Of a stretch of DNA of 64,000 nucleotides, positions 21,101 to 24,100 are shown piece by piece. The notes beneath the pieces were generated by a model, which was not told where the DNA came from, made no database searches, and saw nothing but the letters and a program-made list of their open reading frames with translations. Positions within the stretch are counted from its first letter, which is position 1. Every line of letters begins with the position of its first letter. Origin of the DNA: the human T2T-CHM13v2.0 reference genome, Homo sapiens; the NCBI RefSeq assembly GCF_009914755.1, contig NC_060926.1; one strand, given 5' to 3'. The translations under genes and the position numbers were made by a program.

Positions 21101-24100
21101 CCTGGGAGATGAGTGAGACTTTGGTGGAAGGGAGTGGGTGGTATCAGGTCTGTGGCCCACCCCCTGGAAGGCTCCTCTCTGTCCTCAAAGGTCAGGGCTG
21201 TGCTTAGTCTGGGGTTGCCAGGCTAGGGGTTCTCCACCTGGGGTGGGAAAGGTCATAATCACTGTCTCACACACCTCCCCCTGAGGCTTCGACTGTTGTT
21301 GCTTCTTCTGGCCACTGGATGCCGCGTAGACAGGGCCTGGCACACAGCTCACCACTGCAGGGCCCCCCCCAGGGCACCTGGCGGTGTCATTGGCACGATA
21401 GAACTCCAGGGAACAGAGGGAGAGGTGGGCCTCCGTGCCCACGCACGCCACCCCATGCAGACCAAAGGAGTGTTGCTGCCGTTGGGCTAGCAGCCTAGGG
21501 GGACAGGAGTGAGGTGCAGTAGGGTAAAACAATGCTCCTGCCTCTTGGCCCCACAAACATCCTCCCACTTCATGCCTCCACCATGCCCCCCACCCTTTTG
21601 TGACCATTTATCTCCTCTTCTTCCCCCTTCCATGTTTCCCTCGGGAGATACATGGGGATTGCTGAGTTTCCAGGCTGAGGGAGCCTCAACTACCCAGATA
21701 GGAGGGGCCTTGGGGACCTCCTGCAGTAGAACAACCTTAAGAGAAGGATGGCTAGTCTCGACTTGCCTGGAAGAAACTGTTCCAAGTGGTTTCAGGCTGC
21801 TGGCCCTAAAGGAGGCTGAGGCTAAGGCCTCAGGGAAGGGGAAACCAGGACTTTCCAGTTGGAAGAAATGGCCAGGAGGGAGTGGCTGACACAGGAAGCC
21901 TGAAAAGCCAGGGCGAGCAAGTCCTTCTGTGATGCTGAGACTGGAATAACTGAATGAGTCAGGATGCAAAGGACTAAGGAAGTCTCCCATCTCCATAGCT
22001 CCGCAGAGGCCAGAGACTCTGCAGGACAGATTAGGAGGGGCAGATGCAGCAAGAACAGACCAGCAGGTAGACGCAAGAAAAACTGGGACTGGCATATGCA
22101 AGAATGAAGATGTATAAATGCAGGACAGGTCAAAGTTTGAGGGAATAAATGACCAGAGAAAGGAGATGGATGTGAACAACAAAATGGCAAAGACATCCCA
22201 GGACCTGTGCTGTGTAAGTCTTTAAAAAGGCAGTCCATGCTTCTGCAATTTCAACGTAACAGTGTCCCAAAGCCATCTGAATAGGATAATGGGACTGAAC
22301 TATAGATGCTAAGGCTTGGAAATGCTGCCGAGATGTTTGAGAGAATGGGGGGACTTCTTTATCGATACCAGTAGAATGAGAGGCTGCAGTGAGGCACGTG
22401 CCAGAGTGAAGTACACTCTGCCCGCAGAGAAAGGGAAGAAAATGAGGTCTGGTGCTGGTGGAACGGGCCTGTGAGGCTGATGTAGTCATGCATTATTGCA
22501 ATAATGTGCCCTATCACTTGATGTCAGAGGAAGGATGGAATATGATGACTTGAAGCCATTGGCTAGGAAGACACAGGAGGAGGAAAAGTTTATACACAAA
22601 ACAGACAAAGGAAGCCTGGAGACTTTACAGAATACCTTTGGAAGCTCAGGATAAATGGATCCTGAAGATCTAAGAGATCAGGCACTCTCCCACAGTCCTG
22701 TTTGGCTGAAAGTAAAAGTCAAGGAGCCCATCACAGGAAAAATACATCTATCTTCTAAACATCCTCATTCCCGTTGTCTACAATGAACAAAATAAAAATG
22801 GCAGTGTGTACTTTAATGTGCAGGTCAGGGAAGGCTAGAGTGTGGCCATGTTGGGCAAAGATGACCCTAAGCTAGAAGGGCACTACAAGAACATCCCCAA
22901 ATTTCTGAGATCCTTTGAAACCACCAGAGAAGCTGGGGAATGAGGGCTATGAGGGGACCACTGGGTGAGACTAGAACTTGTTGAGAACAGGAGGGGAGAA
23001 AGGGATGAATTATCGATACTTCAGTCCCTCTTGAAGTTATCAGGGAGACTTTTAATGTGCAAACTGCCTTTTGAAGACAAGTTAGATGTAATTACAGGGG
23101 TTGGAAGCTTCCCACTTCGAGTTCTAAAGGATCCCAGGAGGAAAATTAGGGAACTGGGAGCCTAATTGTGGAAAATGAGCCAGAGAGGCAGGGGCTGTCA
23201 ATCTGACTGCATTCCTGGTAAAGGTTCCAAAGGGGACGCTGAGTTTCCCTCCATCTCGAGTAAGCTGGTAGCACTTATTTTTAACAACTAATCAAATAAA
23301 GCATTTGATTTGGGAACACTGATCCTTTAGGCAAATGTAACCTCTTACAGGAGACGCAAGTATGGCGTCTGAAAGAGAAAAGCACCATGTTGTCTCCTGG
23401 AACTCAGCAGGGGAAGATAAGTAAACATGTGGAACGAGGTAGTCAGTGAGTGAAAAAACAAATCCTAGGACAAGCATCATTCCTGAGACCAAGGTAAGGA
23501 CCAGTCTTGCGTAACACTTCAGTAAATGCCCTGGAAGGTGATTTCTAAGAGCTGCTGCTGCTCCTCCTCTTGGTCAGCTCTTTCAGCCACAAAGGCCTCC
23601 TGGACCCCCTCCCTCCCTGGCCACAGCCGAGTAACTCCATGCTCCCTCTCCTTTCCACCCAACCTGAATTTTATTTACCTCTTGTGTGGCCCCCTGACCA
23701 CTCGGGGTTTGGGTTTGACTTTAAGCTTGGTGATTGGTCCGCAAAAAGGAGAAGGAAGTTGGTAGAGGTAGTGGTTACATATGTGGCGCAGGAAAGGTAC
23801 AGGGTTATTTTTCTGTTTCTGGGAAAGACCCTTTGTGGGCAGCATGGGGATGGGAAAAATGAAGATTTTCCGCATCCACCGTCTGCTGAACACCATTGAA
23901 CTGCATTTCAGGAACTCATGCTGCTCTCTGGATTCAGCAACAGTAATGGGAAATCTAGCGATGTCAATCCAGGTGGGGGAGTTGGGAAGGGGAGAAGGGA
24001 AGAGGAAAGGTGGAGAGGGGAGAGAATGGGAATGTGGGTGAACTAAGGGAGGTGATGGAGGGGGCAGGAAGGAGGAAGAATGAAGGTGGCTGAGGCTGGA

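What the first reader, a model, noticed from the sequence alone, without database searches (positions are those of the whole stretch)
23679..23760. Apparent 60-nt fossil exon whose acceptor reads GG instead of AG
Seen on the minus strand: polypyrimidine tract ACTTCCTTCTCCTTTTTG, then CGG|ACCAATC where CAG| is expected. This is followed by 60 nt in frame ([21 protein letters not shown]) and a good donor GAG|GTAAAT. One base (plus-strand 23740, C here, T needed) separates it from a canonical exon. The next two AGs would give 47- and 40-nt frameshifting exons. Inference: lineage-specific exon loss, or a polymorphic splice switch.
Basis: partly seen in the sequence, partly recalled or inferred. 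Interest (0 to 1): 0.7.

Follow-up and report, generated by a model that had tools for sequence, protein, structure and literature searches.

The report
Disabled alternative exon in human LOXL3
A 60-base stretch inside an intron of the human LOXL3 gene matches a small optional coding exon found in bat, rodent and elephant gene models, but in this human genome one base change at its splice signal has switched it off.

Summary
On the minus strand there is a pyrimidine tract, CGG|ACC where CAG| is expected, 60 nt open in the LOXL3 frame (23738..23679) and a GAG|GTAAAT donor.

The pattern alone is not beyond chance. Shuffled sequence gives about 8 equally good "one base from AG" pairs per window, and about 1.3 that are also open and a multiple of three.

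Cross-species protein data change the picture. Of 26 vertebrate LOXL3 models with a readable exon 4/5 junction, 4 carry a 19-aa insert exactly there, 11-15/19 identical to the human translation: two phyllostomid bats, the mouse Apodemus and the elephant. Shuffled-peptide controls gave 0 of 200. Adding the 60 nt to the human CDS gives 773 aa, the bat model's length.

A second basic cassette, "A" (KLRKRAAK...), is in 6 models. Its human copy (24415..24359, 57 nt) has intact AG/GT sites but is missing from the RefSeq table.

So the "fossil exon" reading is supported. The stretch is the human orthologue of an alternative exon shared by three placental superorders, disabled here by GG at the acceptor.

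Still open: fixed loss or polymorphism, when the change happened, and what the basic inserts in SRCR domain 2 do.

The parts
23679..23738 (-). Cassette exon B (the finding). It is 60 nt and open in the LOXL3 frame, encoding (R)[19 protein letters not shown](R). It is the human orthologue of an insert present in 4 other placental LOXL3 models.
   Evidence: Canonical CDS + B gives 773 aa, the length of bat model P0008.
23739..23740 (-). Acceptor dinucleotide that reads GG where AG is needed. The G at 23740 (plus-strand C, chr2:74,547,740 in T2T-CHM13) is the G of a CpG.
   Evidence: All 54 of 54 annotated acceptors in the window read AG.
23742..23759 (-). Polypyrimidine tract of B (ACTTCCTTCTCCTTTTTG). 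It lies inside a 74-nt AG-free zone that reaches up to 23814.
   Evidence: (context score 9.79, at or above 43 of 54 real acceptors).
23673..23678 (-). Donor of B. The intron side reads GTAAAT after exon-end GAG.
   Evidence: score 2.84, at or above 23 of 52 real donors.
24359..24415 (-). Cassette exon A. It is 57 nt and encodes (R)[18 protein letters not shown](R). Both splice sites are canonical in human. It is not among the LOXL3 exons of the supplied RefSeq table.
   Evidence: acceptor 7.33, donor 5.64; CDS + A gives 772 aa, + A + B gives 792 aa, the length of P0011. One search shows 15-16/18 identity to 6 species.
24416..24450 (-). Acceptor region of A. It holds CTAAC and CTGAC branch-point-like motifs, a pyrimidine tract and CAG|.
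   Evidence: read directly. The branch-point consensus yUnAy is recalled.
33935..34149 (-). LOXL3 exon 4. It encodes the first half of SRCR domain 2 and ends in phase 2 (..TAC AG|gt).
   Evidence: SRCR profile positions 7-45.
21275..21494 (-). LOXL3 exon 5. It encodes the second half of SRCR domain 2.
   Evidence: SRCR profile positions 59-99.
22636..22705 (-). Counterpart of a third insert (C) seen only in the Cervus elaphus X5 model. In human the deer-like boundary reads AA, not AG. The nearby AGs give 70- or 62-nt exons with a stop inside.
   Evidence: 56% identity, E 8.5e-5; 0 of 200 shuffles.

Best explanation
The 60 nt are the human orthologue of a real, frame-preserving alternative cassette exon of LOXL3, which I call B. 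It is one of two neighbouring small exons in intron 4: A is 57 nt and B is 60 nt, about 620 nt apart.

Each exon encodes an 18-19-residue peptide that is lysine/arginine-rich and free of acidic residues in every species seen except the elephant's B. Each is inserted at the phase-2 junction in the middle of SRCR domain 2. The module predates the split of the placental superorders.

In this human assembly, B's acceptor AG has become GG through an A>G change that created a CpG. The spliceosome cannot use that boundary, so B is silent. At most, the next AG 13 nt downstream could be used, giving a 47-nt frameshifting exon that ends in an early stop. Everything else about B is still in place: pyrimidine tract, AG-free zone, open frame, basic residues and donor. 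A remains intact in human.

Shown here: the sequence, the frame, the orthology to modelled exons and the intactness of A.

Inferred: the ancestral AG, expression of the exon in other species, and its function.

My best guess for function is a positively charged surface loop that binds polyanions such as heparan sulfate or matrix, like other basic cassettes of secreted proteins. Alternatively it may add a convertase cleavage site like the one that processes LOXL2.
For: 1. Junction inserts. One search returned 39 proteins, and 26 of them have a readable exon 4/5 junction. Four carry B: P0008 Glossophaga, P0011 Artibeus, P0017 Apodemus and P0019 Loxodonta. Six carry A: P0006 Manis, P0007 Pteropus, P0010 Cricetulus, P0011, P0013 Cervus and P0017.

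2. Collinear mapping. The inserts map onto human intron 4 in transcript order, A at 24417..24358 and B at 23737..23678. For each of 6 peptides, 0 of 200 composition-matched shuffles reached the real score. The best hit in the whole window was always the expected site.

3. Exact boundaries and lengths. Human CDS + B gives 773 aa, equal to P0008. CDS + A + B gives 792 aa, equal to P0011.

4. Coding-like conservation. B is 19 aa in all 5 species with no stop. Human matches 15, 14, 12 and 11 of 19 residues. K+R is 7-8 with no acidic residue in 4 of 5 species. A matches 15-16/18.

5. Taxonomic spread. Carriers lie in Laurasiatheria, Euarchontoglires and Afrotheria.

6. Real-acceptor architecture in human. 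The context score is at or above 43 of 54 real sites, and the AG-free zone is 74 nt.

7. Single copy. The DNA and peptides match nowhere else in the genome with any significance.

8. The acceptor is unusable as it stands. All 54 of 54 annotated acceptors in the window are AG. The RefSeq table lists no exon here.
Against: The pattern alone is at chance level.

All cross-species evidence consists of predicted gene models. I saw no transcript and no non-human DNA. Some models may copy one another by homology projection. The Apodemus model in particular looks untidy, with an extra segment and missing parts.

Seventeen of the 26 readable junctions have no insert. These include all 5 named primate entries (Pan, Cebus, Microcebus, Prolemur x2), 4 marsupial entries, the platypus, two squamates and one frog.

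Clustering at 90% identity hides isoforms, so the real distribution of A and B is unknown. Two further searches found no new carriers: one search gave 6 hits, all seen before, and one search gave 26 hits, none spanning B.

The elephant B is divergent and partly acidic (K+R 4, D+E 3).

The insert falls in the middle of an SRCR domain, which is an unusual place for a functional exon.

Human A is intact yet also unannotated. Absence from RefSeq therefore says little about whether B is used.
Confidence: 0.75

Rival explanations
1. B is a conserved non-coding intronic element, such as a splicing or transcriptional regulator. Gene predictors in a few species mis-thread it as an exon because it is open and flanked by usable sites there. 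On this reading it was never a functional coding exon, and the human GG is of no consequence.
For: All support comes from predicted models. Seventeen of 26 readable junctions lack any insert. The insert would interrupt an SRCR domain at about profile position 52 of 100. No paper describes such an isoform (passages of PMC12619944 and PMC6678131 list only sv1 and sv2). The elephant copy has lost much of its basic character.
Against: B keeps the same length, with no stop, in 5 species of 4 orders. The basic residues are conserved at the same positions in 4 of the 5. The models come from several submitters (names). A neighbouring exon A behaves the same way and is 15-16/18 identical to human. The human copy keeps a full acceptor architecture.
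Confidence: 0.12
2. B is not dead in humans. One possibility is that the C at plus-strand 23740 is one allele of a polymorphism, so that C>T carriers regain the CAG acceptor and include B. The other is that the GG allele uses the next AG and makes a 47-nt exon that triggers nonsense-mediated decay, turning a coding cassette into a dosage-lowering exon.
For: The site is a CpG in a CpG-depleted region (observed/expected 0.23), so C>T is the most mutable change possible there (established knowledge). The window is a single haplotype. All other exon signals are intact. The first AG downstream of the tract gives 47 nt and a stop 8 nt into exon 5.
Against: No population or RNA data could be consulted. 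The 47-nt acceptor scores very poorly in the weight matrix, at -9.49, below all 54 real sites. No such exon appears in the RefSeq table.
Confidence: 0.1
3. B is a chance pseudoexon: an intronic stretch that merely resembles an exon, of the kind that is common in human introns.
For: With thresholds set at this candidate's own scores, the window holds 21 comparable one-off pairs and 4 that are open and a multiple of 3. Shuffles give 8.3 and 1.27. A 57-nt frame is open 48% of the time.
Against: It is orthologous to modelled exons with identical boundaries in four species, with 0 of 200 shuffles reaching the real score for each peptide. The AG-free zone is 74 nt.
Confidence: 0.03

Closest known systems
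Lineage-specific loss of frame-preserving alternative cassette exons through splice-site change, as surveyed in comparative studies (PMC2231371, abstract and passages read)
   Same: B is a short, frame-preserving, probably minor-isoform exon. It is usable in some mammals and has an invariant splice dinucleotide destroyed in another. That paper judges exon conservation by exactly this criterion and reports considerable lineage-specific loss.
   Different: Here the loss is seen in the human sequence, and the exon is known only from other species' models. That is the reverse of human-centred surveys. The event is a single identifiable base in a CpG.
Known human LOXL3 splice variants LOXL3-sv1 and LOXL3-sv2 (passages of PMC12619944 and PMC6678131)
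   Same: Same gene and same region. sv2 skips exons 4 and 5, which encode SRCR domain 2, and sv1 skips exon 5. This domain is already the variable part of the protein.
   Different: Those variants remove exons. A and B add 19-20 residues inside SRCR2. Neither A nor B is mentioned in the passages read.
Pseudoexons activated by deep-intronic mutations (PMC8819188, search listing and start of abstract only)
   Same: An intronic exon-like unit one base away from a canonical acceptor. A single substitution would create a strong 3' splice site.
   Different: Pathogenic pseudoexons are usually non-conserved accidents. This unit is orthologous to a modelled coding exon, and its inclusion would keep the frame.
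Basic alternatively spliced cassettes that confer heparin or matrix binding on secreted proteins, for example VEGF-A exons 6/7 and the PDGF-A retention motif (recalled, not checked here)
   Same: Short Lys/Arg-rich optional exons in a secreted matrix-acting protein. Human and other A peptides contain LRKRAAK(A/V). This fits the recalled Cardin-Weintraub pattern XBBBXXBX.
   Different: No binding data exist. The insert lies inside a folded SRCR domain rather than in a tail.
PACE4 processing of the paralogue LOXL2 at Arg314-Phe-Arg-Lys317|Ala318 (PMC8699698, passages)
   Same: A basic site followed by Ala in an exposed loop near SRCR2 of a LOXL protein. Cleavage there removes the N-terminal SRCR domains. 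Insert A carries RKLRKR|A, and B ends HKR|L.
   Different: In LOXL2 the site is constitutive and lies between SRCR2 and SRCR3. In LOXL3 it would be optional and inside SRCR2. Cleavage has not been tested.

Membership tests
Conserved frame-preserving alternative cassette exon | Canonical AG acceptor and GT donor | tested here: not met
   The donor GT is present. The acceptor reads GG in this human assembly, while 54 of 54 annotated acceptors in the window read AG. The human copy is therefore a disabled member, not a working one.
Conserved frame-preserving alternative cassette exon | Length a multiple of 3 and open in the host frame | tested here: met
   B is 60 nt. The intron is phase 2 on both sides, and inclusion reads R-19 aa-R. 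CDS + B gives 773 aa with the normal stop.
Conserved frame-preserving alternative cassette exon | Orthologous sequence included in gene products of other species with the same boundaries | tested here: met
   Four of 26 readable junctions carry it. The inserts map to 23737/23734..23678, and 0 of 200 shuffles reach the real score for each. These are gene models only, not transcripts.
Conserved frame-preserving alternative cassette exon | Protein-level constraint: no indels or stops, conserved residue classes | tested here: met
   B is 19 aa in 5 of 5 species with no stop. K/R positions are kept in 4 of 5. A nucleotide-level dN/dS could not be computed because no non-human DNA was available.
Conserved frame-preserving alternative cassette exon | Junction reads in RNA | not testable with these tools
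   No RNA-seq data were available. The RefSeq table lists no exon between 21495 and 33934.
Chance intronic pseudoexon | No orthologous exon use and neutral conservation | tested here: not met
   Orthologous inserts exist in 4 species.
Poison (NMD-triggering) exon | Inclusion introduces a premature stop upstream of later exon junctions | tested here: inconclusive
   The 47- and 40-nt versions give stops 8 and 108 nt into exon 5. Their acceptors score below all 54 real sites, and no evidence of inclusion is available.
Heparin/matrix-binding basic cassette | Cluster of basic residues fitting XBBBXXBX or XBBXBX (motif recalled) | tested here: met
   A contains LRKRAAK(A/V) in all 7 species. B has K at alternate positions. 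This is read by eye against a recalled motif.
Heparin/matrix-binding basic cassette | Measured binding to heparin, heparan sulfate or matrix | not testable with these tools
   This needs a bench assay.
Proprotein-convertase site cassette | Basic P1/P2 with basic P4 or P6 in an exposed loop, and observed cleavage | tested here: inconclusive
   RKLRKR|A in insert A and RGPHKR|L at the end of B fit the general rule, which is recalled. The structure model failed, so exposure is not shown. Cleavage has not been tested.

The most novel reading that the evidence does not exclude
LOXL3 carries an undescribed alternative-splicing module that dates back to the common ancestor of the placental superorders sampled. 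It consists of two small basic cassette exons (A and B) that open up SRCR domain 2. They tune matrix or heparan-sulfate binding, or add a convertase cleavage site.

Humans keep A, which is intact but missing from the RefSeq table. They have lost B through one CpG-creating A>G change at the acceptor.

Because that CpG is hypermutable, C>T revertant alleles that restore the exon should recur. B inclusion would then be a rare segregating human trait in a gene linked to Stickler-like disease, myopia and cleft palate.
Probability: 0.25. Interest if true: 0.7.

Novelty: new member of a known kind. Interest (0 to 1): 0.55.

Why it matters
LOXL3 is a collagen and elastin cross-linking enzyme. Passages of PMC6678131 link it to Stickler-like syndrome, myopia and cleft palate, and to cancer. 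The two reviews whose passages I read describe only exon-skipping variants.

If A and B are real, the protein has optional, strongly basic loops in SRCR2 that no one has studied. Mouse and other models would then make an isoform that this human genome cannot make. That matters when animal results are carried over to humans.

The case also gives a clean, single-base, testable example of how an alternative exon is lost. It flags one deep-intronic CpG (chr2:74,547,740, T2T-CHM13) where a common type of mutation would switch a 20-residue insertion back on.

It also shows that a by-eye "one base from an exon" call can be right even when the pattern is statistically unremarkable.

Tried and rejected
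1. Chance pseudoexon was my first reading. Weight-matrix counts and shuffles showed that the pattern alone is at chance level. The reading was then overturned by the orthologous inserts.

2. Repeat or duplicated origin. The 251 bp around B match only themselves in the genome. The A+B peptide finds only A and B, and three other hits at E>5. A and B share no DNA similarity with each other, only 7-11-nt words. B is therefore not a repeat, and A and B are not recent duplicates.

3. Solved structures. The exon-4 peptide hit 15 SRCR chains, but the LOXL2 entry 5ze3 aligned through a different SRCR domain. The exon-5 peptide hit nothing. This gave no information on the junction.

4. AlphaFold2 of the bat A+B isoform with a 20-sequence alignment gave a mean pLDDT of 30.6, which is unusable. 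Where the insert sits in the fold therefore rests only on Pfam coordinates.

5. More carriers. A search with P0011 residues 222-281 gave 6 hits among 33 candidates, all already seen. A search of shorter proteins with P0008 residues 212-271 gave 26 hits among 31 candidates. All but the canonical human-like P0003 covered 35% or less of the query, and none spanned B. The short unnamed proteins end at exon 4 or read into the intron.

6. Literature. Searches found no description of an added LOXL3 exon in intron 4. The only paper matching any of the four insert-peptide strings is on dysbindin, an unrelated protein. Supplements were not consulted.

7. Dating the loss. Human B shows only about two derived residues. 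At primate neutral rates (recalled) so few changes are expected in 57 nt that this cannot separate a recent loss from an old one.

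Full report
**What is there**

On the minus strand of the window, one search shows the following, in order:
- the tract ACTTCCTTCTCCTTTTTG at 23759..23742;
- C, G, G at 23741, 23740, 23739;
- 60 nt from 23738 to 23679;
- GTAAAT at 23678..23673.

One search translates the inner 57 nt as [19 protein letters not shown]. The stretch lies in the 12.4-kb intron between LOXL3 exon 4 (33935-34149) and exon 5 (21275-21494). Exon 4 ends TAC AG|gt and exon 5 starts G CTG. The intron is therefore phase 2, and the 60 nt would read Arg, 19 residues, Arg.

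The next two AGs give 47 and 40 nt. Both frameshift, to stops 8 and 108 nt into exon 5. In addition, the G at 23740 is the G of a CpG.

**Is the pattern special on its own? No.**

I built splice-site weight matrices from the window's annotated sites. There were 54 acceptors, all AG, and 52 donors, of which 51 are GT and 1 is GC.

| Site | Score | Rank among real sites |
|---|---|---|
| B acceptor context (AG ignored) | 9.79 | at or above 43 of 54 |
| B donor | 2.84 | at or above 23 of 52 |

I then counted comparable "one base from AG" patterns, with the thresholds set at the candidate's own scores.

| Count | Non-exonic window, both strands | Whole window, real exons included | Mean of 100 dinucleotide shuffles |
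|---|---|---|---|
| Acceptor-like sites one base from AG | 56 | 68 | 25.9 |
| Site-donor pairs, 30-250 nt apart | 21 | 35 | 8.3 |
| Pairs open in at least one frame | 9 | 20 | 4.0 |
| Pairs open and a multiple of 3 | 4 | 8 | 1.27 |

A 57-nt frame on this strand is stop-free 48% of the time. On these numbers I expected a chance pseudoexon.

Only one human-only feature is unusual. No AG occurs for 74 nt upstream of the GG. Real acceptors in the window have a median of 31.5 nt and a 95th percentile of 60. Only 1.4% of 5000 random positions reach 70 nt.

**What changed the verdict**

I searched the exon-4 peptide (P0001) against the large protein collection for longer proteins. This returned 39 proteins among 69 candidates, mostly vertebrate LOXL3 models. 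In 26 of them the exon 4/5 junction can be read. The other 13 stop at exon 4 or read into the intron.

Of the 26 readable junctions:
- 17 have no insert;
- 8 placental models have an insert;
- 1 frog model has an unrelated insert.

Four models carry a 19-residue insert homologous to the human stretch.

| Species | Protein | Insert B | Identity to human |
|---|---|---|---|
| Homo (T2T window) | translation | [19 protein letters not shown] | - |
| Glossophaga mutica | P0008 (773 aa) | PITKRKVKSKPRVGRGPIK | 15/19 |
| Artibeus jamaicensis X1 | P0011 (792 aa) | PVTKHKVKSKPRVGRGPTK | 14/19 |
| Apodemus speciosus | P0017 | TVNKFKVKHKPRVGRGPSK | 12/19 |
| Loxodonta africana X3 | P0019 | PATELKVKPKPQAGRDPIE | 11/19 |

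All five are 19 residues long and none has a stop.

Six models carry a different 18-residue insert, A ([18 protein letters not shown] and variants). They are Manis, Pteropus, Cricetulus, Artibeus, Cervus and Apodemus. Artibeus and Apodemus have A followed by B.

**Mapping back to the human intron**

tblastn of the inserts against the window gave the following.

| Insert | Human position (minus strand) | Identity | E-value |
|---|---|---|---|
| A | 24417..24358 | 85-90% | 1e-8 to 4e-7 |
| B | 23737/23734..23678 | 60-80% | 9e-7 to 1.4e-4 |
| C (Cervus third insert) | 22703..22635 | 56% | 8.5e-5 |
| Apodemus extra segment | 29144..29100 | 73% | 0.007 |

The order along the intron is the order in the proteins.

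As a composition control, I shuffled each of six peptides 200 times (four B, one A, one C). None of the shuffles reached the real score. The real peptide's best hit in the whole 64-kb window was always the expected site.

Adding the human stretches to the canonical CDS (753 aa) gives 772 aa with A, 773 with B and 792 with both. The last two equal the lengths of P0008 and P0011.

The B carriers belong to Laurasiatheria, Euarchontoglires and Afrotheria. The exon is therefore most simply ancestral to these placental superorders.

**The sister exon**

Human A (24415..24359, 57 nt) looks intact. It has:
- CTAAC and CTGAC branch-like motifs;
- a pyrimidine tract and CAG|A;
- an open frame;
- an AAG|GTATGG donor.

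Its acceptor scores 7.33 and its donor 5.64. A 53-nt AG-free zone lies upstream. Yet the RefSeq table supplied with the finding lists no LOXL3 exon between 21495 and 33934. Absence of B from that table is therefore weak evidence about whether B is used.

**What the inserts would do**

Pfam places exon-4 residues 26-64 on SRCR profile positions 7-45. It places exon-5 residues 7-50 on positions 59-99. The junction is thus at about position 52 of 100, inside SRCR domain 2. Passages of PMC6678131 likewise say that exons 4 and 5 encode SRCR2.

Both inserts are strongly basic. K+R is 7-8 of 18-19 residues, with no acidic residue except in the elephant's B.

By analogy with other basic cassettes of secreted proteins (recalled), I think the most likely role is a charged surface loop for heparan-sulfate or matrix binding. 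A contains LRKRAAK(A/V), which fits the recalled XBBBXXBX heparin-binding pattern.

A second possibility is an optional convertase site. LOXL2 is cut by PACE4 at RFRK|A in an exposed loop after SRCR2 (PMC8699698, passages). A carries RKLRKR|A.

A nuclear-targeting role is a third, weaker idea. None of these was tested. My attempt to model the A+B isoform failed (mean pLDDT 30.6).

**State in human**

With GG the boundary cannot be used. All 54 of 54 annotated acceptors in the window are AG. The rest of the exon is undamaged, and its peptide has only about two residues not shared with other species.

That fits a recent change. However, at primate neutral rates (recalled) so few substitutions are expected in 57 nt that the loss cannot be dated.

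The region is CpG-poor (observed/expected 0.23). The C at plus-strand 23740 is therefore probably methylated and prone to C>T, which would recreate CAG|. The window is a single haplotype. I could not tell whether GG is fixed, is shared with other primates, or is an allele.

The five named primate proteins show no insert. They are canonical-type models and say nothing about the DNA.

**Rivals**

- A conserved non-coding element mis-modelled as an exon (confidence about 0.12). It is disfavoured by the constant length, the absence of stops, the conserved basic positions and the parallel behaviour of A.
- Continued use in humans, as a polymorphic exon or a 47-nt decay-inducing exon (about 0.10). 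This is open. The 47-nt acceptor scores below all real sites.
- Pure chance (about 0.03). This is contradicted.

**Literature**

Five searches and passages of two LOXL3 reviews (PMC12619944, PMC6678131) mention only the 14-exon 753-aa form and the exon-skipping variants sv1 and sv2. I found no description of A or B. Supplements were not read. GENCODE/Ensembl could not be consulted.

Lineage-specific loss of alternative exons judged by the invariant splice dinucleotides is a well-documented kind of event (PMC2231371, abstract and passages).

**Verdict**

The finding is a new member of a known kind and of moderate interest. It rests on gene models, and the decisive checks are listed under next steps: the base in other genomes and populations, junction reads, and a minigene.

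Noticed in passing
window 24359-24415 (- strand): This is the human copy of a second LOXL3 cassette exon, A. It is 57 nt and encodes (R)[18 protein letters not shown](R). It has canonical AG and GT sites and branch-point-like motifs, and is 15-16/18 identical to inserts in six other mammals' models. It is absent from the RefSeq exon table supplied.
   Followed up: partly
window 22636-22705 (- strand): This is the counterpart of a third insert found only in the Cervus elaphus X5 model (56% identity; 0 of 200 shuffles reach the score). In human the deer-like acceptor position reads AA. The nearby AGs give 70- or 62-nt exons with an internal stop, so it is not usable in frame here.
   Followed up: partly
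window 29100-29144 (- strand): A 15-residue match (73%, E 0.007) to an extra segment of the Apodemus speciosus LOXL3 model. It is preceded in human by ttttacag| and runs into a stop soon after. It may be a conserved intronic piece picked up by an untidy gene model.
   Followed up: no
protein P0037 (Nanorana parkeri LOXL3-like model), exon 4/5 junction: A frog model has an unrelated, partly basic insert (SSPSQEPKKKELKNGNR) at the same junction. The model also contains an internal duplication, so it may be an artefact. There is no convincing human counterpart; the best hit has E 0.03 and lies in a lysine-coding low-complexity stretch.
   Followed up: no
window 23638-23642 and 23731-23739 (- strand): A GCATG (RBFOX-type core, recalled) lies 37 nt downstream of B's donor. 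GACCAATCA, which fits the recalled NF-Y CCAAT-box consensus, overlaps the first bases of B. Both are short motifs that could easily be chance.
   Followed up: no
window 21495-25208: The 3.7 kb of intron 4 that holds A, B and C contains none of the 20 longest repeat-masked stretches listed by the hub. The rest of the intron (25.2-31.8 kb) holds seven of them.
   Followed up: no
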